DNA of 64,000 nt from positions 1,760,303 through 1,824,302 of the forward strand of contig OZ251578.1 in NCBI GenBank assembly GCA_965243835.1, read 5' to 3'. The DNA comes from Candidatus Spongiisociaceae bacterium. Its GTDB lineage: Bacteria; Actinomycetota; Acidimicrobiia; Spongiisociales; Spongiisociaceae. Both the position numbers and the translations under genes were made by a program. Position 1 is the stretch's first letter. Each line of letters starts with the position of its first letter. The notes beneath the pieces were generated by a model that was not told where the DNA came from, searched no databases, and worked only from the letters and a program-made list of their open reading frames with translations. Positions 393-64,000 of this stretch are shown here, piece after piece.

Positions 393-569
393 ATGACGAC
401 CGCCCCTCCCCCGCCTACCGGCGTCTGGTCCAAAACCCTGGCCGTCCTGGCTCTGGCGGGCGTGCTGGTCCTGTTCATTCTCTGGCCCGACCCCGGAGCC
501 CCCGTCGACCCCTCCCCCGCCACCGTCGCCGAAACCACCACTACCGCCGCTACCGAAGCAACCCCGTAA
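393..569 (+). CDS. small hydrophobic Pro/Thr-rich protein (58 aa), hypothetical
   Basis: ATG at 393, in-frame to TAA at 567-569; one predicted TM helix (LAVLALAGVLVLFILW); GC-rich codon usage like the host; below the ORF-track size cutoff. Confidence 0.2.
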   Translation: MTTAPPPPTGVWSKTLAVLALAGVLVLFILWPDPGAPVDPSPATVAETTTTAATEATP

Positions 570-1344
570 CTCCCTTTCCCGCAGTCCCCGGTGCGAACGG
601 CAGGCTGTTTAACACGATCTGATGCAACTCCCCGTAATCCAAGATATCAAACGTGTCGGCTTTGATGTTCAGGGTTTTACATAACTCATTGGCGCTGTCT
701 GTTTGGAACAAGTATTCATTGTTAGCCAAAGCTATGTCATAGATGGCGGCTATTAGAACCGGATTAGACGAGAAAGCGCGAGCCATCAGCTGATGATACA
801 AACCTACATTGTTTGCCATAGTTTTTAGAAACGTATCAGAAGAATGCATGGAAAATTCTGAAGCCCGGAGCGCGTTTTCCGCCAACCACCACAGGCGGGC
901 GGCGGCGTTCCAGGTCCTGCCCGGCTTCCCGATCCACAACCAATGCCTCTTCACAAAATGCGCGGGCTTCTGTTTTTTGATGTGACTTTTCCAGCGCACC
1001 GAAACGTAGGGCGACAAGGCAAAACAATTCAGGGAAGCCCAAAAACGGCCGTCGTAGGCTTGTTCGGAGGAGAGGCCGGCCACGGCTTGCCGAAGGAGCG
1101 GCGCGTAGTGGGCGTCGGTCTTGGGCCCCGCTCGCCGGATTTGATTGAGCGGGTCCAACGGTATTCTCAGCTTGATGTCCGGATAGTCGTATGGCAGCTC
1201 GCCTTTTTCCGCGGCTAAATAGTCGAAACTCTCTTTGAGTTGCCTGCTGTCGCCTTGCAGGAACAGGTGGGGAACGGTATCAGCCAACTCCTCCATAATG
1301 CGGTACCCGCCTTGGTCGAGTCGGGGGACGTAGTTCAAAATCAT
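550..1344 (-). CDS. uncharacterized 264-aa protein, paralog of the ORF at 2265..3047; last gene of the 5-gene minus-strand operon
   Basis: Clear paralogy to 2265..3047 (shared blocks LDPLNQI, DAHYAPLxRQAV, LNCFAxSPYVxVRW, HWLW, NAAARLWWL, YHQL, AAxYDxA). Both flank a PAPS-reductase-like gene, which recalls the DUF4007-type partners of PAPS-reductase genes; family assignment from memory only. Confidence 0.6.
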   Translation of the reverse strand: MILNYVPRLDQGGYRIMEELADTVPHLFLQGDSRQLKESFDYLAAEKGELPYDYPDIKLRIPLDPLNQIRRAGPKTDAHYAPLLRQAVAGLSSEQAYDGRFWASLNCFALSPYVSVRWKSHIKKQKPAHFVKRHWLWIGKPGRTWNAAARLWWLAENALRASEFSMHSSDTFLKTMANNVGLYHQLMARAFSSNPVLIAAIYDIALANNEYLFQTDSANELCKTLNIKADTFDILDYGELHQIVLNSLPFAPGTAGKGVTGLLR

Positions 1345-1422
1345 ACCGGCACTATAGCGTAATCCAATCCGCCATAGCCGCCCGCGGCTACTTTTTCATA
1401 CGGGCTTGCGACATTCAAAAAT

Positions 1423-2238
1423 TCAGAGGGCGCAGTGGCCTTCGCACTCGTTCATAAAGTGGTCTTCTTCCTCCTCCTGGTCGGCCCGGATGGCTTCGGC
1501 GAGCGGTATGCGGCGGTGGTGGAGGAAAGCCCGCTTGCGGAACATTTGGGAGGCGTTGTGGTCGGGCGAGCGGAGGCGGGCGTCCATCCGCACCGCCTCC
1601 TCGAACAGGTCGGGGTCGCTTTCCCGCACTTCCAGCCAGCTGGCCGTACTGCGGAACGGGCATCCCACGCAGGCGCTCCTGGCCAGGGTGCGGCCCGGAT
1701 AGTTGGCCTCGAACCAGCCCTGGCATTCCCGGCGGGACATCGGCTGGTCGTCTATCAGCGGGAAGCGGTGCTTGATCCACCATTCGCGGTTCGGTTTGGC
1801 CCGCATCACCTCATCGGTGGATATGCCCAGCCACATTTCCACGTTGGTGTCCGCCGACAGCATCTGCCGGGGCCGGACGCCGAGCAGTTTTCTTACTTCG
1901 ATCCGGATCGGGTCCAACTTGTAGTTTTTGGTGCACTGCCGCCAGTTGATGCCCGCCGGGTCGCCGTTGCGCTCGGCCAAGAAGGCGGGGATGGTCAACC
2001 AGGGTTGCCCCTGGGCGTTTACCCCGTCGCGGACGTCATCCCGCAGGCTCCGCCCGTTGCTGATGGTGTGGATCGGGAAACTGACCTGCGAGCGGAGCCA
2101 TTCCACCGTGTCGTACACCCCCTGCGGCTCCCATCCCGTGTCGGCGAAGAGGGCTATATCCGGCTTGACCCCGAATACGCCCCGCTCGGCCAGAAGGCAC
2201 ATCACCGTGCTCTGAATGCCCCCGCCCAAACTGACCAC
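1423..2238 (-). CDS. phosphoadenosine-phosphosulfate (PAPS) reductase family protein (DndC/SspD-like ATP pyrophosphatase fold)
   Basis: N-terminal PP-loop-like motif VSLGGGIQS followed by DTGWE. This is typical of PAPS-reductase-like proteins of DNA-modification systems and phages. A C-terminal Cys cluster (CVGCP ... CEGHC) is present. Confidence 0.75.
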   Translation of the reverse strand: MVSLGGGIQSTVMCLLAERGVFGVKPDIALFADTGWEPQGVYDTVEWLRSQVSFPIHTISNGRSLRDDVRDGVNAQGQPWLTIPAFLAERNGDPAGINWRQCTKNYKLDPIRIEVRKLLGVRPRQMLSADTNVEMWLGISTDEVMRAKPNREWWIKHRFPLIDDQPMSRRECQGWFEANYPGRTLARSACVGCPFRSTASWLEVRESDPDLFEEAVRMDARLRSPDHNASQMFRKRAFLHHRRIPLAEAIRADQEEEEDHFMNECEGHCAL

Positions 2239-2264: not shown

Positions 2265-3047
2265 TTACCCGGTGGCCCCCCGTTCTTTTGGGGGCAGACT
2301 CTTCTCTACTATCTCATATAACTCATCATATCCAAACAAATCAAAACTAACAGTCCCCGCCCGCAAATTAAGAGCCTTCATCAACTGATTCGGGTACGGT
2401 TTACCAAACAAATAATCATGTTTCTCTATGGCCAAATCATACACGGCCGCCACTAGAATAGGGTTGGCGGCACTGTAAGTACGATCCGTTAATTGATGAT
2501 ATAACTCCACATTATCAGCCATAAATTCCAACAACTGTTCCTTTGAATATTTGGAGTATTCCGCCGCTCTATAGGCGGTTTCATATAGCCACCATAACCG
2601 GGCGGCGGCATTGGAAATACGAGGTCTAGTATTCCACAGCCAGTGATTTTTGACAAAATTAATAGGAAGAGCTTTCTTTAAATGGCTAGTGCTCCAACGA
2701 ACTGTTACATAAGGTGAGATGGCAAAGCAATTGATAGATGTCCATAACGTATCTCCAGCCGCCTCTGCCGGGCTTATACCGGAAACGGCCTGACGTACCA
2801 GCGGAGCATAGTGAGCATCGGAACCCGGACCAGACTGCTCAATTTGATTTAGAGGATCCAACGGTGCCTCCAATTCAATCTTCTTGGAGTGATATGGAGA
2901 ATCTCCGTTTTTGTCAGCCCTCTCCTCAATGCGTTTCCGGAGTTCATCCATATCACCTTTCAAGAAAAGGCCGGGGGTCTCCTCAGCCAGTTCATCTACA
3001 ATCAAGTAGCCATCTTCATTGAGCATAGGGATACTATTCAGCATCAT
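2265..3047 (-). CDS. uncharacterized 260-aa protein, paralog of 550..1344
   Basis: Same conserved blocks as 550..1344; start overlaps the stop of the upstream gene by 14 nt (operon). Confidence 0.6.
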   Translation of the reverse strand: MMLNSIPMLNEDGYLIVDELAEETPGLFLKGDMDELRKRIEERADKNGDSPYHSKKIELEAPLDPLNQIEQSGPGSDAHYAPLVRQAVSGISPAEAAGDTLWTSINCFAISPYVTVRWSTSHLKKALPINFVKNHWLWNTRPRISNAAARLWWLYETAYRAAEYSKYSKEQLLEFMADNVELYHQLTDRTYSAANPILVAAVYDLAIEKHDYLFGKPYPNQLMKALNLRAGTVSFDLFGYDELYEIVEKSLPPKERGATG

Positions 3048-3936
3048 CTATCAATCCTAACTTGAATAGTCGGCCAAATGGTCGCAACAACGAATCGCTG
3101 GTCAACAATAACTGAGCGGCTCTCATAATCGTATGTTCTGAGCCAAAATTAGAACTTCCTAAATTAATATTGTTGTCTTTTAGTTTTTGATGAATACATC
3201 TATACCAACCTATTGATGGTATAGATTCGGGTATTTCACCATCATTGTCATCATCTAATTCACGAAAATAAGATAATACAGTAATCAAAGAACTCAAAAA
3301 GACGCTGGGAATAGTTGCGTTCCTAACGCCTCGTAACCTACGAAACATATCGATGGTATCCTGATTGGCAATAATATCTACAAATCGTTCATTATGGTCA
3401 ATTTTTAAATCAAACTCATCTACCTTATATTCATCCTGGTTATCTACTTTAAGTTTGAATAAACTGTCCACCTTCAATTGTTGTGGATTAACTACGAAAG
3501 ACCAAGAATTATCAACAGCCAAGGGTCGACCTTTCTCGATTGGTATAGATATATTACCATATTCAGTATGAGCGGTAGAAGTAGGAAAATTCTCGATAGT
3601 ATCACAGGCGACAATAGCCGGATGCACCTCCACTTGATTCCTTAGGTATCTCATAGATATAGTTTCCAGCAGGCAAAACCTGTTATTATCTAATGTAGTT
3701 TCCAACGGTTGACGGTACATAGTATCACGACAATATAACATCGCCAAACAGCGAGCTTGCGAGGTGAGGATATGCTCCTCTATGATTTCATCACTTATCA
3801 AAAATTCCAACTTCACTTCAACATTGCTGGAAGTTTGCCGATTTTCCAGTAAAGTAGAGAAACTACTCTTAGGATAATCATCGGAATGCGGCCTGATGAC
3901 AGGATAAAGATAGTGCCGGTTGGCATCGTATTTCAT
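3034..3936 (-). CDS. hypothetical protein (300 aa), AT-rich, no recognizable motif
   Basis: Long ORF in a low-GC segment. Tightly packed between the GHKL ATPase gene (2-nt gap) and the paralog gene (14-nt overlap). Confidence 0.5.
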   Translation of the reverse strand: MKYDANRHYLYPVIRPHSDDYPKSSFSTLLENRQTSSNVEVKLEFLISDEIIEEHILTSQARCLAMLYCRDTMYRQPLETTLDNNRFCLLETISMRYLRNQVEVHPAIVACDTIENFPTSTAHTEYGNISIPIEKGRPLAVDNSWSFVVNPQQLKVDSLFKLKVDNQDEYKVDEFDLKIDHNERFVDIIANQDTIDMFRRLRGVRNATIPSVFLSSLITVLSYFRELDDDNDGEIPESIPSIGWYRCIHQKLKDNNINLGSSNFGSEHTIMRAAQLLLTSDSLLRPFGRLFKLGLIDDAE

Positions 3937-3938
3937 TA

Positions 3939-5801
3939 CTACTCCTCAAAAAATCTTATGGAAAAAGTTTTATCTGTGACAGGTTCCCTGGTAAAAATTT
4001 CTATTTCCCGGCGTTCGCCTGGTTCCGCATCGGGCAAGGAAAATAAATTGTCATCTACAACTTGCAGCGATTCGCCTCCTACGCTGGCTTTCCTAATACC
4101 CATAGGATACTTCGTCCCATCCTCACCCACCGACAACATTTCTATCTTGGTTGGAGTAGTTTCGGGTTGCTCAAAAGCAACAATAACCGAATGTGCATCA
4201 CTTGATCCTTTTCTAAAACGAACTCCCACAAAACTTTGGGGCGTGGCTGTGGCTTGCCGCTTTTCACCTTTCTTGCCCTTTTCCTGTCCCAGTCTATAAG
4301 TACTTGTGTCACCATTACCCGGAGTTTCAGTCGGTTGTTTATCCCGTTTTTTGGATTTTGTCTTTTTGGGTCTCCATGGTGCTCTAAGACTCTGAACAGG
4401 GTCTGTAACGATTGGATCGCCTTGGTTATCGGATTGATCCCGTCCTGTATCTTGGGATTCATCGCCCTCAATAGGAAGAAACTCCGCGAGCTCGTCGACG
4501 CTTTCTGAATCTGAGCCGGGATCGGGCTCTACAAAGTCCTTAATCACCTGATAACACCACCTGCCTATTTCATCAAACAACCCCTTGGCCTTTTTGCGCA
4601 ATTTTTCATCGCTAATATTGTCTATGCTTATTTGATCGTGCCTCGGAGATTCTGCCTGCCTCAACAGGGCTTCCCCTTTAGACTTGCATTCTATGATAGC
4701 GGTAAACCCCCACCAATGAGTAGGAAGCATAGCTAACTTAGGGAATATATATTTCCGGTCGGTTGTGATAAGCATACCAGCATCTCGCACTAATGCTATT
4801 TTCTTGTTACGAGTTTCCTTATCTACTTCAATACGAATTGATATTTCTCCTACATCATCCGCAGTAAAACGATCCACCGGTGCTTCTAAAGAAACTCGTA
4901 TATAATTCCGAACCATTTTATCTTGGATATCCTGTAAATAGTGCTTGTATGTCTTCACATTTATTTTACTATCGCCTACATTTACTTCCAATCCGCCATG
5001 TATAATGGCATGAAAATAATTACTCAGAACAATATCTATACCCCGTTTTTCCCATTCCTCTAACCCATCAGTAAAAGAATATCCAGGTATGTGGATAGCT
5101 GTACCAGGTTTCTTTAATTTTAGGTCAACGGGGACTTTATCGTTCTTAAGGGAATCGAATCTCTTCCCAAGATATCCAACCCTTTTGTATGGAGTACCGC
5201 TTTTGCCTTCGTGAGATACTAATATGGCCTTCCCCATAAAGCGTTGTCGAAGATGTCCGTTCTCCAAAAAGGCGGTGTTATACAATACTGTTCGTAAGGG
5301 AGTAGCAACAAAAGAGGCGAATTTTCCTATACCAAAAGAACCGGCGGCGTCTTTTTGCGGTTTGTTTGTCAGCCCCTCGCCCTTAGTAAGAGTTTCCCAA
5401 AATGTCGGTCGGTTATTATTCTTTATGTCCGTAGCGCCGGTTGTATTACTATCCGTTATACACAAGGATTCAATTGGGCTACCCCCCCCCCCCAATAAAC
5501 CCTTTGCTTTTTCAAAACCGGGGAGATATTTTTCTTCATTGTGGGGAGAATCTATCGCATACTGAATATGCCGCGCCAAACTATCTGTCGCCAACAAAAC
5601 GCCGTCTAACATCTTGTGCTGAAAATTGACTACCACGGGACCGGTGCCGTCCGGGGCTTCGGCATCCAAAGAGTTCTGAATAGCCTCCCTGATGATGGAC
5701 GTTTCGCGGTCGCCGGTAAAATGGGCCATGCCGGGATGGGCCGGCCCCTCGATAGCACCGGCCTGGTTCTCTTCGAACTTCCATTTGAGGTTTTGGCTCA
5801 T
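3939..5801 (-). CDS. GHKL-superfamily (histidine-kinase/MORC-like) ATPase domain protein, about 620 aa; first gene of the operon
   Basis: N box REAIQNSLDA and G box GSFGIGKFASF of Bergerat-fold ATPases. Start assigned to ATG at 5801 (MSQNLKWKF); an alternative start is at 5840. Contains an in-frame G12 tract. Confidence 0.65.
   Translation of the reverse strand: MSQNLKWKFEENQAGAIEGPAHPGMAHFTGDRETSIIREAIQNSLDAEAPDGTGPVVVNFQHKMLDGVLLATDSLARHIQYAIDSPHNEEKYLPGFEKAKGLLGGGGSPIESLCITDSNTTGATDIKNNNRPTFWETLTKGEGLTNKPQKDAAGSFGIGKFASFVATPLRTVLYNTAFLENGHLRQRFMGKAILVSHEGKSGTPYKRVGYLGKRFDSLKNDKVPVDLKLKKPGTAIHIPGYSFTDGLEEWEKRGIDIVLSNYFHAIIHGGLEVNVGDSKINVKTYKHYLQDIQDKMVRNYIRVSLEAPVDRFTADDVGEISIRIEVDKETRNKKIALVRDAGMLITTDRKYIFPKLAMLPTHWWGFTAIIECKSKGEALLRQAESPRHDQISIDNISDEKLRKKAKGLFDEIGRWCYQVIKDFVEPDPGSDSESVDELAEFLPIEGDESQDTGRDQSDNQGDPIVTDPVQSLRAPWRPKKTKSKKRDKQPTETPGNGDTSTYRLGQEKGKKGEKRQATATPQSFVGVRFRKGSSDAHSVIVAFEQPETTPTKIEMLSVGEDGTKYPMGIRKASVGGESLQVVDDNLFSLPDAEPGERREIEIFTREPVTDKTFSIRFFEE
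5482..5493 (-). repeat. homopolymeric tract, C12 on + strand = G12 in the coding strand of the GHKL ATPase gene (encodes GGGG; currently in frame)
   Basis: 12 consecutive C at 5482-5493 inside an otherwise AT-rich gene. Confidence 0.9.
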
Positions 5802-5866
5802 AGCGGGCCCTATATTACACTGGTCGGGCGGGGAAGGCAAATCCGCCGTCCCGCCGAGGAGGACTG

Positions 5867-6856: not shown

Positions 6857-9000
6857 ACCCGCCCGGAGATAAGCCCCGATCCCCCCGCACTCCCCAAAAA
6901 CGACCCCCTTGAATTTGCCGCCCACCTGAATTAAACTGAAAAGGCGGAGCAAAACTGAGGGCGGGCGGGTGGGGGGTGGGCGGGACCCCGCCTTCCGAAA
7001 AATTTTTCCGAGAACGCGAAAAAAATACCTATTTTCCCCAATATCTCCGTCAGGGGAACGCCCACCCGCGCTGGCGCCTCCCCCGGCCCCCGTCTTTGTC
7101 ACACCACCGGATTAAGGTAGGTAACCATGATGACATACGACACCCAACTAGCCCATCAACTCCTCCGAGCGGGCGCCGACGACCCGCACGCCGAGTCCGC
7201 CCGCAACAAGAGAAAGCCACCCGCTTCCTAATAACCCCGCCCGAGAAGAAGCACCGCTCCCCCGCACTCCCCAAAACGACCCCCTTGAATTTGTCACACT
7301 AGGCCATTAAAATTAAAGGCGGAGCAAAACTGGGGGCGGGCGGGTCCCCGCCTTCCGAAAATTATTTCCGAGAACGCGAAAAAAATACTTATTCTCCCCA
7401 ATATTTTCCGTCCGAGGAACGCCCACCCGCGCAGTGCCGTCCCTGCCTCCGTCTTTGACACCCCCGGATTAAGGTAGGCAACCATGACATACAACACCCA
7501 ACTAACCCACCAACTCCTCCGAGCGGGCACCGGCGACCCGCACGCCGCGTTCCACCCCCAACCAGAGGAAGCCACCCGCTTCCTAATAACCCCGCCCGAT
7601 GAGAAACACCGCTCCCCCCACACTCCCCAAAAACGACCCCCTTGAATTTGTCACACTCGGCCATTAAAATTAAAGACGGAGCAAAACTGGGGGCGGGCGG
7701 GCGGGGGGTGGGCGGGTCCCCGCCTTCCGAAAAATTTTTCCGAGAACGCGAAAAAAATACTTATATTTATTTCCGTCAGGGGAAACGCCCGCCGCGCCGG
7801 GTCCCGCGCCTTGGCCCCCGTCTTTGTCACACCACCGGATCAAGGTAGGCAACCATGACATACAACACCCAACTAACCCACCAACTCCTCCGAGCGGGCG
7901 CCGACGACCCGCACGCCGAGTTCCACCCGCAACAAGAGAAAGCCACCCGCTTCCTAATAACCCCACCCGAGGAGAAACACCGCTCCCCCCACACTCCCCA
8001 AAACGACCCCCTTGAATTTACCGCCCGCCTGAATTAAACTGAAAAGGCGGAGCAAAACTGGGGGCGGGCGGGACCCCGCCTTCCGAAAAATTTTTCCGAG
8101 AACGCGAAAAAAATACCTATTTCCCCCAATATCTCCGTCAGAGAAACGCCCACCCGCGCTGGCACCTCCCCCGGCCCCCGTCTTTGTCACACCACCGGAT
8201 CAAGGTAGGCAACCATGACATACGACACCCAACTAACCCATCAACTGCTCCAAGCGGGCGCCAGCGACCCGCACGCCGAGTTCCACCCGCAACAAGAGAA
8301 AGCCACCCGCTTCCTAATAACCCCACCCGAGGAGAAACACCGCTCCCCCCACACTCCCCAAAAACGACCCCCTTGAATTTGTCACACTCGGCCATTAAAT
8401 TAAAAAGGCGGAGCAAAACTGGGGGCGGGCGGGCGGGGGGTGGGCGGGTCCCCGCCCTCCGAAAATTTTTTTCCGAGAACGCGAAAAAAATACTTATTTT
8501 TCCCAATATTTCCGTCAGGGGAACGCCTGCCGCGCCGGGTCCCGCGCCTTGACCGCCATCTTTGTCACACCACCGGATCAAGGTAGGCAACCACAACATA
8601 CGACACCCAACTAGCCCATCAACTCCTCCGAGCGGGCACCAACGACCCGCACGCCGCGTTCCACCCGCAACAGGAGAAAGCCACCCGCTTCCTAATAACC
8701 CCACCCGAGGAGAAACACCGCTCCCCCCACACTCCCCAAAAACGACCCCCTTGAATTTGTCACACTCGGCCATTAAATTAAAAAGGCGGAGCAAAACTGG
8801 GGGCGGGCGGGCGGGGGGTGGGCGGGTCCCCGCCCTCCGAAAATTTTTTTCCGAGAACGCGAAAAAAATACTTATTTTTCCCAATATTTCCGTCAGGGGA
8901 ACGCCTGCCGCGCCGGGTCCCGCGCCTTGACCGCCATCTTTGTCACACCACCGGATTAAGGTAGGTAACCATGATGACATACGACACCCAACTAGCCCAT
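6857..9000 (+). repeat. tandem array A: about 5.8 direct copies of a 355-380-bp cassette. Each copy holds a promoter-like element, a G-rich leader, an A5T5 palindrome, an RBS, and the start codon plus about 30 codons of the downstream helicase gene
   Basis: Motif cactccccaaaa(a)cgacccccttgaatttg recurs at about 6887, 7263, 7621, 7991, 8351 and 8731. ATGACATAC start-like segments recur at 7127, 7484, 7855, 8215 and (ATG lost) 8590; the real start is at 8971. Two unit subtypes alternate 1,2,2,1,2,2, implying a higher-order duplication of about 1.1 kb. Copies differ by several percent. Confidence 0.9.
8751..8779 (+). promoter_or_regulatory. sigma70-like promoter candidate (TTGAAT-N17-TAAATT) of the last cassette, about 190 nt upstream of the helicase start; equivalent hexamers are in every cassette
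   Basis: -35 TTGAAT at 8751-8756, 17-nt spacer, -10 TAAATT at 8774-8779. The same architecture (TTGAAT-N17-TAAAAT) is at 7642-7670 and in the other units. Confidence 0.4.
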
Positions 9001-11067
9001 CAACTGCTCCGGGCGGGGGCCGGCGACCCGCGCGCCGGGTTCCGCCCCCAACAGGAGGAGGCCATTCGTTCCCTGGTCGGGGGCCGGGCCCCGAACCGGC
9101 TGTTGCTGGTTCAGAAAACCGGATGGGGCAAAAGCTTCGTCTACTTCATCGCCACCAAGCTCCTGCGCCGACAGGGGAAGGGGCCGGTCCTGCTCATTTC
9201 GCCCCTGTTGGCGTTGATGCGCAACCAGATCGCGATGGCGGAGCGTTTGGGAGTGGCGGCCGCCGCCATCCACTCCGGCAACAAACCGGAATGGAAGAGC
9301 GTGGTCGAGCGACTGTCCCGGAACGAAATCGACATTCTGCTGATCTCGCCCGAACGGTTGGCCAATCAAAAATTTAGGGAAGACGTGTATGCGCCCCACC
9401 TAAGCCAACCAGGTATGTGGGTGGTGGACGAAGCCCACTGCATATCGGACTGGGGGCATGACTTCCGACCGGATTACCGGCGGATCGAGGGCCTGGTCCG
9501 CGGCCTGCCCCCCAATGTTCCGTTGCTGGCCACCACCGCCACCGCCAATGACCGGGTGGTGGACGACCTAGAGCAAATACTGGGGCCGGATCTGCGAATT
9601 ATGCGGGGCGACCTGGACCGGCCGTCCCTGCGTCTGCAAACCATCGCCATGCCCTCCCCCCGGGATCGCTTGGCCTGGTTGGCGGAGAATGTTCCGCAAC
9701 TGCCCGGCAACGGCGTGATTTACACCTTGACCGTCCGGGATGCGAAGCGGGTGGCCCGGTGGTTGCAAAGTTGCGGAGTGGATGTCCGCGCCTACACCGG
9801 CTCCACCGACCCGGCGGAAAGGCCGGTTCTGGAAAATGCCCTGCTGGACAATCGGCTGAAAGCCTTGGCGGCCACCTCCGCCTTGGGCATGGGTTTCGAC
9901 AAACCGGATTTGGGGTTCGTCATTCACTATCAGGCCCCCGGATCGGTGATCGCCTACTACCAGCAGGTGGGCCGGGCGGGGCGCGGCATCGGCGAGGCCC
10001 GCGGTGTGCTGTTGAGCGGCGTCGAGGACCAGGACATCATCGATTACTTCCGCGAAAACGCCTTCCCGACCCGGGCGGAAGTGAAGGAAATGCTGGCCGC
10101 TCTTAGGAGAGCGAAGGACGGGCTGTCGTTCTACGACCTGGAAACCAGGGTCAACCTCAACAGCTACCGCTTGCGCCAAACCCTGAAATTGATGGAGTTG
10201 GAGACCCCGGCTCCGTTGGCCCGGCAGGATTCGGTCTATCAACTGACCCCGCATCGTCTGGGAGCGGGCTTCTGGGAGCGCGTGGAACGTCTCAACCGAC
10301 TGCGCCGGGAGGAGCAGGCTGAAATGCGGGAATACGTCGGGCTTGCATCGGGGCATATGAACTTTCTCATCAAGGCCCTCAACGGCTCCCCCGCCGCCGG
10401 CGATGACCCGCCGACCCTGCCGCCCCTTCCCACCACCATTTCCGGAAAACACCGGGTGGCCGCCGAGGATTTCCAAAAACGCGACTGGTATAGCATCGCG
10501 CCGCGTAAAAAATGGCCGAGGGGCGGCCTCCCCCGACTCGGCGTCCGCGGCCCCATCCCAGAAGACCGCAAATACCAACGGGGACGGGCCCTTAGTTTGT
10601 GGGGATTCGGCGCTCTCGGTCGGCTGGTAAAACAGGGAAAATACCAAGACGCCCGCTTCCCGGATCAATTGGTGGAAGATTGCCGGCGAATGTTCCGCGA
10701 CTGGAACCCGCAACCAACGCCGCGCTGGGTCGCCTGCGTGCCTTCACACAGCCATCCCGACCTGGTACCCGATTTCGCCCGGCGGCTGGCGGACGCCCTG
10801 GGTCTCCCCTTCCGCTCCGTACTGGAAAAAACCGGCAAAAACCGTCCCGCCCAAAAAGTTATGAACAACAGCAGGATGAGGGCCGACAACGCGGACGGAG
10901 CGTTCCGGGTAAACGACCGCCTGATGGGCCCGGAATACGGGGAACCGGTACTGCTGGTGGATGACGTTGTGAATTCAAGATGGACGATGACCGTGTGCGC
11001 CTGGCTGTTGCTGACGCAGGGAAGCGGCGAGGTGTTTCCGTTGGCCTTGGCGCAGGCGGGGGACTAA
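8971..11067 (+). CDS. RecQ-family DNA helicase fused to a C-terminal ComFC/GntX-like phosphoribosyltransferase (PRTase) domain
   Basis: RecQ motifs: PQQEEAI, TGWGKSF (Walker A), DEAHCISDWGHDFRPDY, LATTATA, YQQVGRAGRGIG. C-terminal about 130 aa carries ComFC-like motifs (NADGAFRV ... VLLVDDVVNS), characteristic of type-I PRTase/ComF proteins. Confidence 0.8.
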   Translation: MMTYDTQLAHQLLRAGAGDPRAGFRPQQEEAIRSLVGGRAPNRLLLVQKTGWGKSFVYFIATKLLRRQGKGPVLLISPLLALMRNQIAMAERLGVAAAAIHSGNKPEWKSVVERLSRNEIDILLISPERLANQKFREDVYAPHLSQPGMWVVDEAHCISDWGHDFRPDYRRIEGLVRGLPPNVPLLATTATANDRVVDDLEQILGPDLRIMRGDLDRPSLRLQTIAMPSPRDRLAWLAENVPQLPGNGVIYTLTVRDAKRVARWLQSCGVDVRAYTGSTDPAERPVLENALLDNRLKALAATSALGMGFDKPDLGFVIHYQAPGSVIAYYQQVGRAGRGIGEARGVLLSGVEDQDIIDYFRENAFPTRAEVKEMLAALRRAKDGLSFYDLETRVNLNSYRLRQTLKLMELETPAPLARQDSVYQLTPHRLGAGFWERVERLNRLRREEQAEMREYVGLASGHMNFLIKALNGSPAAGDDPPTLPPLPTTISGKHRVAAEDFQKRDWYSIAPRKKWPRGGLPRLGVRGPIPEDRKYQRGRALSLWGFGALGRLVKQGKYQDARFPDQLVEDCRRMFRDWNPQPTPRWVACVPSHSHPDLVPDFARRLADALGLPFRSVLEKTGKNRPAQKVMNNSRMRADNADGAFRVNDRLMGPEYGEPVLLVDDVVNSRWTMTVCAWLLLTQGSGEVFPLALAQAGD

Positions 11068-12125: not shown

Positions 12126-12560
12126 CTACTCCTCCGCATCATCAATATTGTTAGGGTTCATAGACTCCGCCAACTGCTCTACTTGGTTTATCAATAATTC
12201 AATCTCGGGAACAGTAGGTACCAAATCATATTCGTGATGGTGACAGGCCCGACTTAGGGCTACCCAAGCGGAGTGGGCATCTTCGGATGTCACAGTATCA
12301 ACTGCAACCCTACCGTCTCGGGCTAATTGCTTAAGACAAGCAAGTTGCGTAAACCGGCTTGTATTCTTCATATAGCGATAATAGTAATGGTCATTCCAAA
12401 GTCTGTCCAGTGTCGCTTCAAGAACTTGGCGAGTCAGCAAAGCCGCCGCCCGATGCCATTCGCCTCGCGGCCCATCAGTATGGTTGAGTAAACCCCGAGC
12501 GAGGTTTAGTAGGTCAAGGGTCATAACGACGTAATCTTTCGGCCAAACTTTGACAATCAT
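12126..12560 (-). CDS. small His-rich hypothetical protein (144 aa), downstream partner of the Rad50/SMC-like ATPase
   Basis: AT-rich ORF overlapping the upstream gene by 47 nt; no recognizable motif. Confidence 0.45.
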   Translation of the reverse strand: MIVKVWPKDYVVMTLDLLNLARGLLNHTDGPRGEWHRAAALLTRQVLEATLDRLWNDHYYYRYMKNTSRFTQLACLKQLARDGRVAVDTVTSEDAHSAWVALSRACHHHEYDLVPTVPEIELLINQVEQLAESMNPNNIDDAEE

Positions 12561-58960: not shown

Positions 58961-60019
58961 TTATATCTCGGGGAAAAAGTAGCGGCGGATGACGTCCAAG
59001 CGGTCGTCGAAGCCGTCGGGGTGCAGATACCAGAGGGTGGCGGCCAAGGTGGACAGCATCGGGTTGCCGTCCTGGGGGGTGAAGCAGAATCCGACCACCC
59101 GCCTGCCTTCCCGCACGGTCAGGGTTTCCACCGGCACCACCGTCTGGCTGAGGATGCGCCCGTAGTAGCCGTGGTCGCGCCCGAAGGAGAAGATGCGTCC
59201 GGCGGAGCGTTTGTAGGTGAGGGCCACCCGGGGGTTGGCGGTCAGCCTGCTCACCGCCTGCTCGACGGTGATGTCGTGGTCCAGGCGAATGTCGAAGTGG
59301 AGGGTGTGCATGTATTGGCTGTTGATTTTGAGGGCGGAGGAGAACAGGTTCAGGTCGTGGCCCAGGGTTTGGAAAAGGTGATGGGCGTCGCGGGCGTGAT
59401 GGGTGCCGAACCGGTCCTGCTTGTGGGTTTCCACGGTGGGGCCGGGCACGAACCCGCCGTCCTGGCTGATGTCGTTGGCCCGCCGGATGCACAAGAAGGA
59501 ACCGTTGACGACGCGGGAGCCTCCGTCCGGGTCGAAGCCGAGGGTTTTGAGAAGGACGGCGATGTTGTGGGTGTTGCAGGACACGATGTGGATGAAGCGG
59601 TCCCGACGGCGCTCCAAGGCCTGGTCGTTGATGCCCCGGGCGTACATCTTCCCGAACCCGAATTCGGAACCCTGGGCGAGAAAGCCGAGCACGCCGGGGG
59701 CGTTCCCGTAGTGCAGTTCCTTGTTTTCGTTGCCGGAGGGGGTGCAGTCGATGACCACCGAGGCCCGCTCCAGGGCTTCCCGGGTTTCATACCGGGCGCG
59801 GTGGCCCAGCTCCGCGAATCCGGCCCAGCGGTCGGCGTCCACCGCCAGGCGCGCCCCCCGCCGCACCAGGTCGTTGACCTTGCCCCGCTCGTCCCGGAGC
59901 GGCGTGCGCTTGTGAAAGGTCACCTCGTCGATCCCGAACGTCCGCTGATGATCCGCCAAGAGCCCGATCAACGGCTCCCCGATCGTCCCGGTCCCGATAA
60001 CGTGAACAATATTTGCCAT
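58961..60019 (-). CDS. type II (archaeal-type) glyceraldehyde-3-phosphate dehydrogenase family protein
   Basis: NAD-binding GTGTIG, catalytic region IVSCNTHN resembling the type II GAPDH SCNTT motif. Confidence 0.5.
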   Translation of the reverse strand: MANIVHVIGTGTIGEPLIGLLADHQRTFGIDEVTFHKRTPLRDERGKVNDLVRRGARLAVDADRWAGFAELGHRARYETREALERASVVIDCTPSGNENKELHYGNAPGVLGFLAQGSEFGFGKMYARGINDQALERRRDRFIHIVSCNTHNIAVLLKTLGFDPDGGSRVVNGSFLCIRRANDISQDGGFVPGPTVETHKQDRFGTHHARDAHHLFQTLGHDLNLFSSALKINSQYMHTLHFDIRLDHDITVEQAVSRLTANPRVALTYKRSAGRIFSFGRDHGYYGRILSQTVVPVETLTVREGRRVVGFCFTPQDGNPMLSTLAATLWYLHPDGFDDRLDVIRRYFFPEI

Positions 60020-60088
60020 GGCCCCAATCTACCCTTTGGCGGGACCGCGCCGTCGGAAAACGTCACTTGGCCCCGCTACAATGGCCGT

Positions 60089-60367
60089 ATGAACCGTGCA
60101 ACCGATGCCAAACCGATGACGGTAGGCGACCTGGTGCGGGAACTGTCCCGCTACCCGGACGACCTGCGCGTAATGGTGAGCGGCTACGAGGACGGCTTCG
60201 ACGACTTGGAGCCCGGCCTGCTCTCCGTGCGGGACGTAGCCCTCGATCGACACCCGGAGTGGTTCTACGGCCGACACGACACCCCCCTCCCGGAAGACGC
60301 GGAGGACGTCGCGACCGTGCCCGCCCTTCTCATCCACCGCCCCAACAAAACAGACGACCTGCCATGA
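60089..60367 (+). CDS. small hypothetical protein (92 aa) translationally coupled to the downstream AAA_21 ATPase
   Basis: ATG at 60089; stop TGA overlaps next ATG (ATGA at 60364-60367). Confidence 0.45.
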   Translation: MNRATDAKPMTVGDLVRELSRYPDDLRVMVSGYEDGFDDLEPGLLSVRDVALDRHPEWFYGRHDTPLPEDAEDVATVPALLIHRPNKTDDLP

Positions 60368-61551
60368 CCTTCCTCCGCAAGGTCCGTCTGGAAAACCTGC
60401 TTTCCTTCGGCCCCGCCGGCCAGGAACTGGATCTGGGCCCGCTGAACGTGCTGATCGGCCGCAACGGCTCCGGCAAATCCAACCTGCCCGCCGCCCTGGG
60501 CATATTGGCCGCCGCCCCGCGCAACCTGCCGACGCCCATCCGCGCCGCAGGGGGAACGAGCGAATGGCTTTGGAAAGGGGCCGACCAGCCGCCCGTTGCG
60601 ACCGTGGAGGCGACGGTTGAGTACCCGGAGGGCGCTTCCCCCCTCATATATCGACTTTCTTTCACCGCCAAAGGGCACCGGTTCACTTTGGTAGACGAAG
60701 CCATCGAAAACGCCAACCCGTCCTCCGGCGAAAGCTCGCCTTCCTTCTATTATCGTTATCAGGGAGGCCAACCGATTTTGAACGTAAGAACCGAAGAAGG
60801 GTTTTGGCGGGAAAAAACCGTTGACCCTGAATATATGAACAGCGAAACCTCGGTCCTTCGCAATTATATAGACCCCTTACATTACCCGCAAATAACATAT
60901 CTAGGTGAACGGTTTCCAAAAATACTCATATACCCACAGTGGAGCTTTAGTCATTACTCGCCGCCTCGTCAACCCGCCTCAACTGACTCGCTTCCCTATG
61001 TATTGCTAGATGATGCTTCGAACCTCGCTTTGGTGATGAACAACTTGCTTAATAAGCCTACAATTCGAAGGGAAATACTTGAGAAAGTCAGGAATTTTGA
61101 TCCTGACATTGAAGACATTGTAACCAATGTCGATGGTCGCAGTGTACAGATATATACTCATGAAAAAGGTTTAAACCATCCAATATCGGCTATGCATTTT
61201 GGGGATGGGCTCCTCCAATACTTATGCCTGTTGGCTGTCCTTTATAAACCTGAATCTCCGCCTCTTATCTGTCTTTCCGAACCGGAATCCAACCTGCACC
61301 CAGATATAATACCGGATGTAGCAAAACTTCTGTTAGAGGCTTCCTCACGAAGCCAAATTATCATAACCACTCAATCCGATATTATGGTAGATGCCCTAAC
61401 GGAAACACCCGAATCCATAGTGGTATGTGAAAAATACGATAACTGCACCCAACTACATCGCCTGAGTAGAGAACAGTTGCAACCTTGGCTAGATGAATAC
61501 AGACTAGGTGATTTGTGGATATCCGGTCAAATAGGCGGCAACCGATGGTGA
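60364..61551 (+). CDS. ABC-type AAA_21-family ATPase (abortive-infection/defense-type ATPase, about 395 aa)
   Basis: Walker [10 protein letters not shown], signature-like [15 protein letters not shown], Walker [14 protein letters not shown]; AT-rich 3' two-thirds. Confidence 0.7.
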
Positions 61552-63121
61552 CCACCGGAAAGGAAACAGCAGTTCAAGGGGCTACGACTGGGTATGAGGC
61601 TGAGCTGTGGAAGATGGCGGACAGTCTGCGGGGGAGCATGGACGCCGCCGAGTACAAGCATGTGGTGTTGGGGCTGATCTTTCTCAAGTATGTTTCGGAC
61701 GCGTTCGAGGAACTACACGAACATCTGCAGGGAGTACCCGACGCCGACCCGGAGGACCCGGAGGAATACGTCGCCGAGAGTGTGTTCTGGGTGCCGAGCG
61801 AAGCGCGGTGGGGGCTCTTGCAAGCCGAGGCCAAGCAACCCGACATCGGGCAACTGGTAGATGAAGCGATGGACGCCATCGAACGGGACAACCCCGCCCT
61901 CAAGGATGTGTTGCCCAAAGAGTACGCCCGGCCCGCTTTGGACAAAACACGACTCGGCCAGCTGATTGACCTAATCAGCAACGTCAAAGTGGGCGACGCG
62001 GAGTCGCGTTCCAAGGATGTGCTGGGACGGGTCTACGAATATTTTCTGGCGCAGTTCGCCGGGGCGGAAGGCAAACGGGGCGGCGAGTTCTACACTCCGC
62101 GGTGCGTGGTGAAACTGCTGGTGGAAATGCTGGAACCCTACAACGGCCGAGTGTACGACCCGTGTTGTGGCTCATCGGGAATGTTCGTGCAGTCCATGGA
62201 GTTCATCCGCTCGCACGCCACCGGCAACGGGAACGGCGGCCTGGCGGGCGACATTTCCATCTTCGGTCAAGAGTCCAACTACACAACTTGGCGGATGGCG
62301 AAGATGAACCTGGCCATCCGGGGCATCAACGGCCAGATCGAAATCGGCGACACTTTCCACGATGACCGCCACCCCGACCTGAAAGCCGACTTCATCCTGG
62401 CCAACCCCCCGTTCAACATTTCCGACTGGGGCGGCGAACGACTGACCGACGATCAACGCTGGAAATACGGCATCCCACCCAAAAGCAACGCCAACTTCGC
62501 TTGGATGCAACACATAGTCCATCACTTGTCTCCGGGGGGGGGGGTGGGATCGTGCTTGCCAACGGGTCAATGTCGTCCCAGCAGTCCAACGAAGGCGAGA
62601 TACGCAAAAATCTGCTAGAGGCCGATTTGGTGGACTGTATGGTGGCCCTGCCTGGCCAGCTGTTCTACTCCACCCAGATCCCCGCCTGCCTCTGGTTCCT
62701 GTCCCGCAACCGAGGTAACGGACCGTTTCGAGACCGCCGCGGCGAGGTGCTTTTCATAGACGCCCGCCGAATGGGCGTAATGCGAGACCGCACCCATCGC
62801 GAACTTACCAATGATGAGATAAGTCGCATCACCAACACCTACCATGCCTGGCGCGGCGAGACAGACGCAGACGAATTTGCCAATATCCCAGGCTTCTGCT
62901 ATAGTGTACCCATAGAGGAGTTACGCAAACACGATTACGTGTTAACTCCTAGTCGCTACGTAGGAGTGGAGCCTGAAGAGGAGGAGGACGAGCCTTTCGA
63001 AGAAAAAATGACCCGACTAATCAGGCAATGGAATTATCAAACAAGCAAGGCCTTAGATACTAACAAGAAAATCACCAATAACTTAAAAAAGGTAGGATTT
63101 ACCACTGTAAGGGAACTCTAA
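61545..63121 (+). pseudogene. hsdM: type I restriction-modification methyltransferase subunit HsdM, split by a frameshift at a G11 homopolymer (phase-variable or disrupted)
   Basis: Upstream frame carries the HsdM N-domain ([26 protein letters not shown]) and catalytic NPPF. Downstream frame carries [11 protein letters not shown]...[14 protein letters not shown]. The frames switch inside GGGGGGGGGGG at 62534-62544. Confidence 0.8.
62534..62544 (+). repeat. G11 homopolymeric tract inside hsdM (currently out of frame; G12 or G9 would restore the ORF)
   Basis: Direct count of 11 G; reading-frame analysis of the flanking HsdM motifs. Confidence 0.9.
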
Positions 63122-63743: not shown

Positions 63744-64000
63744 AAAAATACATGAAGCAAGCCACTTTAGGTAGCATAGCACCATTCACTTATGGTAAAG
63801 GCTTACTCAAATCTAAGAGAAACCACTTCGGTAGGGTACCGGTATATGGTTCAAATGGTATCATCGATTATCATGATACGCCGCTAACAGATGGACCCAC
63901 AATTATAATAGGTCGCAAAGGTACTGTAGGAGCTGTGCATTTTTCTCGTATCCCTTGCTGGCCAATTGACACAACATTTTACATAACAAGCTCAGATATT
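63740..64000 (+). CDS. hsdS: type I restriction-modification specificity subunit HsdS, N-terminal part (continues beyond window)
   Basis: N-terminal TRD-like sequence (GRVPVYGSNGIIDYHDTPLTDGPTIIIGRKGTVGAVHF..WPIDTTFYI) typical of HsdS. Confidence 0.7.
   Translation, partial: MKKYMKQATLGSIAPFTYGKGLLKSKRNHFGRVPVYGSNGIIDYHDTPLTDGPTIIIGRKGTVGAVHFSRIPCWPIDTTFYITSSDI

What the first reader, a model, noticed from the sequence alone, without database searches (positions are those of the whole stretch)
5482..5493. In-frame G12 homopolymer inside the GHKL ATPase gene: candidate phase-variation switch
A run of 12 G (coding strand) encodes GGGG within an otherwise AT-rich gene. Tracts of this length undergo slipped-strand mispairing at high frequency. 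A second long G tract (G11) disrupts hsdM about 57 kb away, so two defense-type genes in this window carry long poly-G tracts. Homopolymers this long are rare by chance in coding DNA and would allow stochastic ON/OFF switching of defense modules.
Basis: seen in the sequence. Interest (0 to 1): 0.6.

Follow-up and report, generated by a model that had tools for sequence, protein, structure and literature searches.

The report
Slippery G-run switch in defence gene
A run of 12 G in a candidate anti-phage ATPase gene of an uncultured sponge-symbiont bacterium is a mutable ON/OFF switch: relatives carry the same run at lengths from 10 to 22 G, about half of them out of frame but otherwise intact. 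This extends a trick known from pathogens to a new gene family and habitat.

Summary
Positions 5482-5493 are C12 on the + strand, which is G12 on the coding (-) strand of a 620-aa gene (3939-5801). The run is in frame and encodes GGGG. A G11 run at 62534-62544 frameshifts hsdM. These are the only runs longer than 7 in the 64-kb window.

The gene is PADLOC candidate PDC-M33A. Its predicted fold matches the GHKL ATPases MORC and Topo VI-B. It leads a low-GC operon (42-45% GC in a 63% GC window).

The phase-variation interpretation is supported by comparison. The pure G run sits at the same loop in at least 13 lineages of sponge-symbiont MAGs, with lengths G10, 11, 12, 15 and 22. About half are out of frame. 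ON and OFF forms coexist inside single 90%-identity clusters: G12 ON against G11 OFF at 94-96% nucleotide identity, the latter seen in four samples. Every tract-OFF allele returns to full length by changing the tract alone, and dN/dS is 0.12-0.24. Homologues carry independent tracts (C11 to C36) at three other loop or linker sites. For hsdM, a relative at 93% nucleotide identity has G12 (ON).

Read-level heterogeneity and the phenotype could not be tested. The mechanism is already known (pglX of Streptomyces, phasevarions). The gene family, the hosts and the repeated independent origins are new. Verdict: a new member of a known kind, of moderate to good interest.

The parts
5482..5493 (-). G12 homopolymer (C12 on the + strand). 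It codes the Gly run of L-L-G-G-G-G-S, residues 105-108 of PDC-M33A, and is the proposed slippage switch. It is currently ON.
   Evidence: The same site in relatives carries G10 to G22.
3939..5801 (-). PDC-M33A, a 620-aa MORC/Topo VI-B-like GHKL ATPase. It has a transducer-like domain, a disordered basic linker and a C-terminal beta-sandwich. An alternative TTG start lies at 5840.
   Evidence: PADLOC PDC-M33A, E = 3e-72. AF2 model with pLDDT 79. Foldseek hits to 2q2e_B, 6o1e, 5ix2_B and 9cdg_B at E = 1e-6 to 9e-8. Invariant E39/N43/D46, D117/T120/G122 and G154/S155/G157/G159.
3034..3936 (-). PDC-M33B, 300 aa, with no known domain. It starts 2 nt after the stop codon of A.
   Evidence: PADLOC PDC-M33B, E = 1.5e-37. 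Junction sequence. Conserved downstream of A in all relatives examined.
2265..3047 (-). PDC-M33C, a DUF6339 protein of 260 aa. It overlaps the end of B by 14 nt.
   Evidence: Pfam PF19866, E = 9e-20. PADLOC PDC-M33C, E = 3e-18.
1423..2238 (-). PAPS-reductase / SspD-like protein, called as 259 aa in relatives. It is a conserved fourth gene of the locus.
   Evidence: Pfam PAPS_reduct, weak hit. PADLOC SspD, E = 2e-11. PHROG 424, E = 1e-41. A 259-aa gene sits at the same place in L001, L002, L034, L035, L037, L040 and L043.
550..1344 (-). Second DUF6339 / PDC-M33C-like gene, 264 aa.
   Evidence: Also present in L002, L034, L035 and L043.
62534..62544 (+). G11 homopolymer in hsdM, out of frame (OFF). 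G12 would give the canonical [13 protein letters not shown].
   Evidence: Relative L044 has G12 and an intact 520-aa HsdM. The family consensus xPxGxAG[FI] has the same length as the G12 form.
61515..63121 (+). Type I restriction-modification methylase gene hsdM, split in two by the G11 tract.
   Evidence: Pfam HsdM_N plus N6_Mtase across two ORFs. In relative L044 the operon continues with a 201-aa gene, hsdS and hsdR.
60013..61551 (+). AAA_21 / HEC-01A-like ATPase gene immediately upstream of hsdM and overlapping it.
   Evidence: PADLOC HEC-01A, E = 2e-145. Pfam AAA_21. Same arrangement in L044.

Best explanation
The G12 run is a hypermutable slipped-strand-mispairing tract. It acts as a reversible frameshift switch for PDC-M33A, the GHKL (MORC-like) ATPase that leads a four- to five-gene candidate defence operon. 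The host is probably an Acidimicrobiia sponge symbiont.

Shown in silico: at G12 (also G9 or G15) the gene is ON. Loss or gain of one G during replication shifts the frame and stops translation after 106-115 codons.

Inferred: the truncated product, or any restart product, lacks either motif I or motifs II-IV of the ATP site and so is a null. Because A, B and C are separated by 2 nt or overlap by 14 nt, the OFF state probably also lowers expression of the downstream genes.

The tract lies in a surface loop between helix 90-103 and strand 110-118. That loop tolerates any number of glycines, so in-frame length changes are harmless and only the frame matters. Populations would then hold a mixture of immune-ON and immune-OFF cells. 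The hsdM G11 tract 57 kb away is the same kind of switch, here in the OFF state. Switching hsdM off abolishes both methylation and restriction, so it is a safe OFF state (established knowledge of Type I R-M systems).
For: - Tract and frame logic.
- Pure G run at the homologous site:
  - window: G12 ON
  - L002/L003: G12 ON
  - L034: G12 ON
  - L045=L046, L047, L048: G11 OFF. These come from four samples and at least two strains; they are 94-96% nucleotide-identical to L034 and 97.9% identical to each other.
  - L035/L036: G12 ON
  - L037-39: G12 ON
  - L040: G10 OFF
  - L001=L004: G11 OFF
  - L005: G12 ON
  - L041: G15 OFF
  - L042: G12 OFF
  - L043: G15 OFF
  - L016: G15 OFF
  - L049: G22 OFF
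  - Sources.
- Identical lengths were recovered in independent ENA and Logan assemblies and in PacBio HiFi MAGs.
- ON and OFF gene products coexist within 90%-identity clusters 1, 2, 4, 5, 7 and 8.
- Every tract-OFF allele becomes full length after changing only the tract.
- Repaired OFF alleles compared with ON alleles give dN/dS 0.12-0.24, the same as ON-ON pairs.
- Synonymous sites are saturated between tract-bearing lineages (pS 0.74-0.82), yet the run stays uninterrupted. Elsewhere in the gene GGG is only about 18% of Gly codons.
- Most of the wider family (1741 representatives at E <= 1e-30) has no Gly run in this loop, so the run is not a structural requirement.
- Independent tracts at other permissive sites: L030 C14; L032 C11; L033 C36 plus G20 lying 85 nt upstream of the ATG; L025 C23. 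All are OFF and each is one slip from ON.
- Site 1 has a second origin in a Dehalococcoidia-type clade whose sister sequences read QNGG.
- Enrichment: 8 runs of 9 or more in 56 kb of gene against 4 in 355 kb of flanks, p = 3e-5.
- hsdM: G11 OFF here against G12 ON at 93% nucleotide identity.
- Precedent: the G tract in pglX of Streptomyces coelicolor switches at 1e-2 to 1e-4 (PMC4365076). About 2% of hsdM genes carry such repeats (PMC7383803).
Against: - No reads were available, so heterogeneity within one population and a switching rate are not shown. All of the variation seen is between assemblies or strains.
- The closest pair with different lengths is 94-96% identical, not clonal.
- The family also decays in ordinary ways. 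Four of 30 species-representative genes are frameshifted away from any homopolymer and one carries a 1.5-kb insertion. Some tract-OFF alleles could therefore be young pseudogenes.
- PDC-M33 is only a computational defence candidate. No paper on it or on DUF6339 was found.
- The window-level excess of long runs is modest under low-order Markov models.
Confidence: 0.75

Rival explanations
1. The tract is a mutational hot spot without adaptive value. Once seeded by a GG-rich loop, it expands by runaway slippage and is simply the commonest way this dispensable, horizontally acquired gene gets inactivated. On this reading OFF alleles are young pseudogenes, not a reversible phase.
For: Defence genes turn over fast. 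Five of 30 species-representative homologues are broken by non-tract frameshifts or an insertion. Six of the 8 species-representative genes that carry a tract are OFF. That is close to the two-thirds expected at mutational equilibrium without selection.
Against: No tract-OFF allele carries a second lesion. dN/dS is 0.12-0.24 on branches that include OFF alleles. The pure run persists through saturated synonymous divergence, where a single synonymous GGG>GGN change would stabilise the gene. Tracts arose independently at four or more loop or linker sites of the same protein. The closest lineages (window, L002, L034, L035, L037) are mostly ON.
Confidence: 0.15
2. This is a static glycine loop, and the apparent length differences are homopolymer sequencing or assembly errors.
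For: Long G/C runs are error-prone on Illumina and PacBio platforms (general knowledge). Several OFF calls come from HiFi MAGs and short metagenome contigs.
Against: The same length was recovered from independent samples and assemblers. G11 appears in L045/L046, L047 and L048. G12 appears in L002/L003 and L037-39. Lengths range over 12 nt, from G10 to G22, which is far beyond miscall size. The ON length differs between lineages: 9/12/15, 10/13, 11/14, 13/16, 14/17 and 21/24. The gene has 45% GC and mixed Gly codons. Most family members lack the Gly run.
Confidence: 0.05
3. The run is a recoding site. RNA polymerase slippage or ribosomal frameshifting on it yields some full-length protein from every allele, so it tunes dosage rather than acting as a binary genetic switch.
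For: Transcriptional slippage on long homopolymers rescues frameshifted genes in some bacteria (general knowledge). The very long runs in homologues (C23, C36, G22) would be prone to it.
Against: Nothing in the data speaks for it. Productive slippage is best documented on A/T runs, not G/C runs (general knowledge). It would act in addition to DNA-level length variation, which is directly seen here, and would not replace it.
Confidence: 0.05

Closest known systems
Pgl (BREX-type) phage growth limitation of Streptomyces coelicolor: G tract in pglX
   Same: An actinobacterium with a high-GC genome. A poly-G run inside the ORF of a phage-defence gene changes length, giving ON/OFF switching at 1e-2 to 1e-4 (PMC4365076).
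   Different: The protein is different: a methyltransferase there, a MORC-like GHKL ATPase here. Switching in Pgl was measured experimentally, whereas here it is inferred from comparative data. Here the tract is conserved over many lineages and has independent counterparts at other sites of the same family.
Phase-variable Type I/III restriction-modification systems (phasevarions) with simple sequence repeats in hsdM, hsdS or mod
   Same: The hsdM G11/G12 tract fits directly: a repeat inside the methylase ORF toggles the whole system. About 2% of hsdM genes carry such repeats (PMC7383803; review PMC12707154).
   Different: The described cases are mainly in host-adapted pathogens. Here the host is an uncultured sponge symbiont. 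No evidence was sought or found for a regulatory (phasevarion) role.
Poly-G/C contingency loci of Campylobacter, Neisseria, Haemophilus and Helicobacter (own knowledge)
   Same: Uninterrupted G/C runs of about 8-13 nt in ORFs. Strain-to-strain ON/OFF differences. Otherwise intact genes.
   Different: Those loci mostly encode surface structures and R-M enzymes in small low- or mid-GC genomes of pathogens. The tracts here reach 22-36 nt in homologues and sit in a cytoplasmic ATPase of an environmental symbiont.
Reversible homopolymer frameshifts in Mycobacterium tuberculosis, e.g. the 7C run of glpK (own knowledge)
   Same: An actinobacterial lineage lacking MutS/MutL, in which homopolymer indels act as reversible switches.
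   Different: Those runs are shorter and lie in a metabolic gene, with a drug-tolerance phenotype. Whether the organism studied here lacks mismatch repair was not tested.
Prokaryotic MORC / paraMORC GHKL ATPases linked to restriction-modification-like systems (Iyer, Abhiman and Aravind 2008, own knowledge) and PADLOC candidate PDC-M33
   Same: GHKL ATP-binding motifs and a MORC/Topo VI-B-like fold. All three PDC-M33 profiles hit adjacent genes in order.
   Different: No Pfam HATPase_c model hits the protein. The system's function is untested. The locus here has two extra conserved genes, a PAPS-reductase-like gene and a second DUF6339 gene.

Membership tests
Homopolymer (slipped-strand) phase-variable contingency locus | Uninterrupted mononucleotide run of about 8 nt or more inside the ORF or promoter | tested here: met
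   G12 at 5482-5493 and G11 at 62534-62544.
Homopolymer (slipped-strand) phase-variable contingency locus | A change of 1 nt in the run toggles between a full-length and a truncated product | tested here: met
   In silico, G9/12/15 give the full-length ORF (620 aa from the ATG) and the other lengths give 106-115 aa. For hsdM, G9/12 give 534/535 aa.
Homopolymer (slipped-strand) phase-variable contingency locus | Tract-length polymorphism between closely related strains, with both ON and OFF states | tested here: met
   G12 (L034) against G11 (L045-48) at 94-96% nucleotide identity. ON and OFF products coexist within 90% clusters. hsdM is G11 here against G12 at 93% nucleotide identity.
Homopolymer (slipped-strand) phase-variable contingency locus | OFF alleles otherwise intact and under purifying selection | tested here: met
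   All are restored by changing the tract alone. dN/dS is 0.12-0.24.
Homopolymer (slipped-strand) phase-variable contingency locus | Length heterogeneity within one clonal population and a measured, reversible switching rate | not testable with these tools
   No reads or cultures were available.
Homopolymer (slipped-strand) phase-variable contingency locus | A phenotype that switches with the tract | not testable with these tools
   The organism is uncultured and the system is uncharacterised.
GHKL (Bergerat-fold) ATPase, MORC / Topo VI-B type | Motif I, E-x-x-x-N-x-x-D | tested here: met
   R38-E39-A-I-Q42-N43-S44-L-D46. R38, E39, Q42, N43, S44 and D46 are invariant in 81 sequences.
GHKL (Bergerat-fold) ATPase, MORC / Topo VI-B type | Motif II (D-x-G-x-G) and motif III (G-x-x-G-x-G) | tested here: inconclusive
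   Motif III is present as G154-S-F-G157-I-G159, invariant. Motif II is a variant, D117-S-N-T120-T-G122, not the canonical DxGxG.
GHKL (Bergerat-fold) ATPase, MORC / Topo VI-B type | Bergerat fold followed by a transducer domain | tested here: met
   AF2 model with pLDDT 79. The top four PDB matches are Topo VI-B, MORC3 (twice) and MORC2, with E = 9e-8 to 1e-6 and probability 1.00.
GHKL (Bergerat-fold) ATPase, MORC / Topo VI-B type | Recognised by curated sequence models (Pfam HATPase_c family, or the PDB by sequence) | tested here: not met
   No Pfam, NCBIfam or PHROG hit and no PDB sequence-profile hit. It is therefore a divergent member, recognisable only by fold and motifs.
PADLOC candidate defence system PDC-M33 | Adjacent genes matching the PDC-M33A, B and C profiles | tested here: met
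   E = 3e-72, 1.5e-37 and 3e-18 for consecutive genes on one strand.
PADLOC candidate defence system PDC-M33 | Demonstrated anti-phage activity | not testable with these tools
   No paper mentions PDC-M33 or DUF6339.
Type I restriction-modification system (HsdM) | HsdM_N plus N6_Mtase domains, with hsdS and hsdR in the operon | tested here: met
   Domains shown. hsdS and hsdR follow in the 93%-identical relative L044. In the window the operon runs off the end at 64000.

The most novel reading that the evidence does not exclude
PDC-M33A is a defence-gene family in which hypermutable homopolymer switches have evolved repeatedly. There are at least five origins at four loop or linker sites, with lengths from 9 to 36 nt. 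They occur in uncultured sponge symbionts of two phyla, Actinomycetota (Acidimicrobiia) and Chloroflexota (Dehalococcoidia, Caldilineaceae).

This would mean that stochastic ON/OFF switching of immunity is a selected, community-wide strategy in a dense, phage-rich animal microbiome, and not a speciality of pathogens. It would also mean that this uncharacterised system is costly enough, through autoimmunity or a barrier to gene flow, for switching to pay.
Probability: 0.5. Interest if true: 0.7.

Novelty: new member of a known kind. Interest (0 to 1): 0.6.

Why it matters
Phase variation through homopolymer slippage is textbook biology for pathogens and for restriction-modification systems, and one actinobacterial defence system (Pgl) uses it.

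Three things are new here:
- The switch sits in an uncharacterised GHKL-ATPase defence candidate.
- It has been kept as a pure run across lineages whose synonymous sites are saturated.
- The same protein family has acquired further runs independently at other permissive loops in symbionts of a second phylum.

This has three consequences. It is indirect evidence that PDC-M33 carries a real fitness trade-off, as expected of an immune system. It gives a simple marker, tract length, for following immune-ON and immune-OFF subpopulations in sponge metagenomes. It also warns annotators that 'frameshifted pseudogenes' in such MAGs may be switched-off contingency genes.

Tried and rejected
- Pfam, NCBIfam and PHROGs gave nothing for PDC-M33A or B.
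- Sequence searches of the PDB gave no hit, neither the A-family profile nor B as a single sequence. Only the fold search worked.
- A scan of JGI metagenome contigs with the family's peptide patterns found no relative. The planned search for same-species length variants there was therefore dropped.
- The species-representative genome collection does not hold the window's own genome. The closest locus there encodes a protein only 58% identical.
- Literature searches for PDC-M33, DUF6339, and phase variation or contingency loci in sponge symbionts found nothing relevant.
- A search for the sample accessions, to identify the host sponge, found nothing usable.
- I first took Ca. Spongiisociaceae for a gammaproteobacterial family. 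The taxonomy look-up shows it belongs to the Acidimicrobiia, so the claim is two phyla, not three or four.
- I considered that the Gly run might be structurally required. This is rejected because most of the family has other residues in that loop.
- I considered assembly error as the source of OFF calls. This is rejected as a general explanation because of reproducibility across samples and the 12-nt range of lengths.
- A whole-genome census of G/C runs against defence genes could not be done. Only the window and the fetched loci, about 0.5 Mb, were available.
Full report
**1. The observation**

Positions 5482-5493 are twelve C on the + strand. The only long ORF across them lies on the - strand (3939..5840; the probable ATG is at 5801, giving 620 aa). 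The coding strand therefore reads G12: TTA TTG GGG GGG GGG GGT AGC, which is L-L-G-G-G-G-S. The run is in frame.

Replacing it in silico gives these results:
- G9, G12 and G15 give the full-length protein.
- G11 or G14 stop after 114 or 115 codons from the ATG.
- G10 or G13 stop after 106 or 107 codons.

G11 at 62534-62544 splits hsdM into two ORFs, and both hit Pfam N6_Mtase, abutting in the profile. G9 or G12 restores a 534- or 535-aa protein.

These two runs are the only homopolymers longer than 7 in the 64 kb. Markov models of order 2-5 expect 0.04-0.4 G/C runs of 11 or more in the window. For a run of 12 or more inside this 45%-GC gene the expectation is 5e-5 to 8e-4. Taken alone, the window-level excess is modest. 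What makes the tract significant is the comparative evidence in section 3.

**2. What the gene is**

The gene leads a low-GC block (35-48% GC in a 63% GC window). The block holds tightly packed genes on the - strand that match the PADLOC candidate system PDC-M33:
- A, 3939-5801, E = 3e-72.
- B, 3034-3936, E = 1.5e-37.
- C, 2265-3047, a DUF6339 protein, E = 3e-18.

A PAPS-reductase/SspD-like gene (1423-2238) and a second DUF6339 gene (550-1344) follow. Both are conserved in relatives.

No Pfam, NCBIfam, PHROG or PDB sequence model recognises A. An AlphaFold2 model built from 81 homologues has a mean pLDDT of 79. Its four best PDB matches are Topo VI-B, MORC3 (twice) and MORC2, at E = 9e-8 to 1e-6. 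The invariant residues are those of the GHKL ATP site: E39, N43 and D46; D117, T120 and G122; G154, S155, G157 and G159.

The tract codes residues 105-108, a loop between helix 90-103 and strand 110-118 of the model.

The neighbourhood is a defence island. It includes PsyrT/PsyrA (8971-12125), a low-GC LmuB/SMC-like ATPase (12514-14922), and, 55 kb away, a HEC-01A-like ATPase joined to the Type I R-M operon.

**3. Comparative evidence for a switch**

A homologue search returned close full-length proteins that keep GGGG or GGGGG at the site. It also returned a set of about 540-aa 'N-truncated' calls whose first residues are out-of-frame sequence running into GGG. I fetched their DNA and measured the tract:

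| Locus | Protein identity to window | Tract | State |
|---|---|---|---|
| window | - | G12 | ON |
| L002/L003 | 95% | G12 | ON |
| L034 | 90% | G12 | ON |
| L045=L046, L047, L048 | in the window's 90% cluster (N-terminal fragment) | G11 | OFF |
| L035/L036 | 80% | G12 | ON |
| L037-39 | 63% | G12 | ON |
| L040 | 61% | G10 | OFF |
| L001=L004 (Acidimicrobiia MAG OY282370.1) | 58% | G11 | OFF |
| L005 (Ca. Spongiisociaceae) | 50% | G12 | ON |
| L041 | 48% | G15 | OFF |
| L042 | 45% | G12 | OFF (ON at 11 or 14) |
| L043 | 45% | G15 | OFF |
| L016 (Dehalococcoidia) | 40% | G15 | OFF |
| L049 | 40% | G22 | OFF |

The G11 contigs come from four samples and at least two strains. They are 94-96% nucleotide-identical to L034 and 97.9% identical to each other.

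The ON length differs between lineages: 9/12/15, 10/13, 11/14, 13/16, 14/17 and 21/24. The run therefore behaves as a flexible spacer, not as a fixed coding element.

The exact-sequence cluster look-up places the window's protein in the collection, on a 3.18-Mb NCBI/ENA contig. Its own 90%-identity cluster contains full-length forms (620 and 633 aa) and split forms (114+432 aa and 127+508 aa). The N-terminal fragments of the split forms end ...LLGGGVAQLNPCV, which is exactly the G11 reading predicted. Clusters 2, 4, 5, 7 and 8 show the same ON/OFF mixture.

The same lengths recur in independent assemblies. ENA and Logan contigs are 100% identical to each other, and the lengths appear in both Illumina and HiFi data. 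Random assembly error is therefore not the explanation.

**4. Switch or decay?**

Every tract-OFF allele becomes a full-length ORF when only the tract is changed.

After such repair, dN/dS between OFF and ON alleles is 0.12-0.24, the same as for ON-ON pairs.

Synonymous differences between tract-bearing lineages are saturated (pS 0.74-0.82), yet the run stays pure. Outside the tract only about 18% of Gly codons in this gene are GGG.

The Gly run is not structurally required. Among 1741 family representatives (50% clusters, E <= 1e-30) the loop usually reads like RNGGQ, KKTIP or DYNRQ.

Site 1 has at least two origins. One is in the Acidimicrobiia clade. The other is in a Dehalococcoidia-type clade (L016, P0044, L049) whose sister sequences read QNGG.

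Other family members carry independent runs on the coding strand at other permissive places. All are out of frame and one slip from ON:
- L030: C14 in a hairpin turn at about residue 175.
- L032: C11 in the loop at about residues 207-216.
- L033: C36 in the same loop, plus G20 lying 85 nt upstream of the ATG.
- L025 (Caldilineaceae): C23 in the disordered linker.

In the 30 species-representative loci, runs of 9 or more number 8 in about 56 kb of this gene and 4 in about 355 kb of flanks (binomial p = 3e-5).

Against this, the family also decays in ordinary ways. Four of the 30 genes are frameshifted where there is no homopolymer, and one has a 1.5-kb insertion. Six of the 8 species-representative genes with a tract are OFF, close to the two-thirds expected without selection. 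I therefore give the non-adaptive 'hot spot' reading a probability of 0.15.

**5. hsdM**

The closest relative, L044, is 93% nucleotide-identical over 10.8 kb. It has G12 and an intact 520-aa HsdM reading [13 protein letters not shown]. The next homologue (88% identity) reads STSGTAG. The family consensus xPxGxAG[FI] has the same length as the G12 form. The window's G11 is thus one slip from ON, and the tract is a recent acquisition of this lineage. In L044 the operon continues with a 201-aa gene, hsdS and hsdR.

**6. Mechanism**

Shown: the frame logic; the natural length polymorphism with ON and OFF states; the intactness of OFF alleles; and the location of the tract in a loop.

Inferred from established knowledge of contingency loci:
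- Replication slippage changes the run by one or more bases at high frequency.
- The truncated or restarted product lacks essential ATP-site motifs and is a null.
- Because A, B and C are separated by 2 nt or overlap by 14 nt, the OFF state is probably polar on the downstream genes.
- Populations are mixtures of ON and OFF cells.

The closest precedent is the G tract in pglX of Streptomyces coelicolor, which switches at 1e-2 to 1e-4 (PMC4365076). For hsdM, the precedents are the phase-variable Type I systems; 2% of hsdM genes carry repeats (PMC7383803; PMC12707154).

**7. Organism and habitat**

The relatives whose records name an organism are uncultured MAGs labelled Acidimicrobiia (including Ca. 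Spongiisociaceae, which belongs to that class), Dehalococcoidia, Chloroflexota or Caldilineaceae. The remaining relatives are unnamed metagenome contigs. The sponge-symbiont habitat is inferred from these taxa (own knowledge) and the name Spongiisociaceae. No record examined names a host, and the search on sample accessions found nothing usable. The window shares gene order and 78% nucleotide identity in the flanks with Acidimicrobiia MAG OY282370.1. It is therefore most likely from an Acidimicrobiia sponge symbiont.

In all lineages of the G-tract clade the A-C block has 41-44% GC inside flanks of 58-68% GC.

**8. Novelty and verdict**

The mechanism is known. What is new is the gene family, the hosts, the depth of conservation of the pure run, and its repeated independent origin within one protein family. 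No paper in the searched library mentions PDC-M33, DUF6339, or phase variation in sponge symbionts.

Verdict:
- Observation: confirmed.
- Interpretation: supported, short of read-level and phenotypic proof.
- Novelty: a new member of a known kind.
- Interest: 0.6.

Noticed in passing
window 6876-9064: A tandem array of 5.9 copies, with period 354-381 bp, lies between the luciferase-like gene and psyrT. Each unit contains the psyrT start (the ATG plus the start of its coding sequence; the real start is at 8971) together with the upstream spacer. The spacer includes a GC-rich hairpin followed by T7. Relatives have these pieces only once. The array therefore adds five extra promoter/5'-end copies of the PsyrT defence helicase gene. 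Its function is unknown.
   Followed up: partly
L033 5891-5910 and 6617-6652; L025 7522-7544; L049 604-625; L030 6516-6529; L032 6620-6630: Homologues of the same ATPase gene carry very long runs. These include C36 (coding P12), G20 lying 85 nt upstream of the ATG, C23, G22, C14 and C11. They sit at several different loop or linker sites, and all are out of frame by one slip.
   Followed up: yes
L032 2324-2343; L040 1665-1676; L023 1501-1517; L008 10848-10856: Further long G/C runs occur in the flanks of related loci. C20 lies at the 5' end of a sulfatase-domain ORF. G12 lies between the luciferase-like gene and a DUF222/HNH gene. G17 is intergenic. G9 lies in an unknown ORF of about 550 aa. 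This suggests more switchable genes in these symbionts.
   Followed up: partly
window 550-2238 (- strand): The PDC-M33 locus has two extra conserved genes that are not in the PADLOC definition: a PAPS-reductase/SspD-like protein and a second DUF6339 protein. This hints at a DNA-modification component.
   Followed up: partly
window 2265-5840 and the same block in L001, L005, L034, L035, L037, L040, L041, L043: The A-C block stays at 41-44% GC inside genomes of 58-68% GC. In most of these loci it sits next to the same luciferase-like gene, even in lineages whose A proteins are only 45-60% identical. Its composition has not drifted towards that of the host genome despite long residence or repeated replacement.
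   Followed up: partly
L026 4357-6001: In one Dehalococcoidia MAG the ATPase gene is interrupted after codon 42 by about 1.5 kb of inserted DNA. The insert was not examined.
   Followed up: no
window 12514-14922 (- strand): A second low-GC island (38-47% GC) encodes an 802-aa SMC/LmuB-like ABC ATPase. It is probably another horizontally acquired defence gene.
   Followed up: partly
window 60013-61551: A HEC-01A / AAA_21 ATPase gene overlaps the start of hsdM. A 201-206-aa gene of unknown function follows hsdM. This is the same arrangement as in relative L044, so the Type I R-M operon carries two accessory genes.
   Followed up: partly
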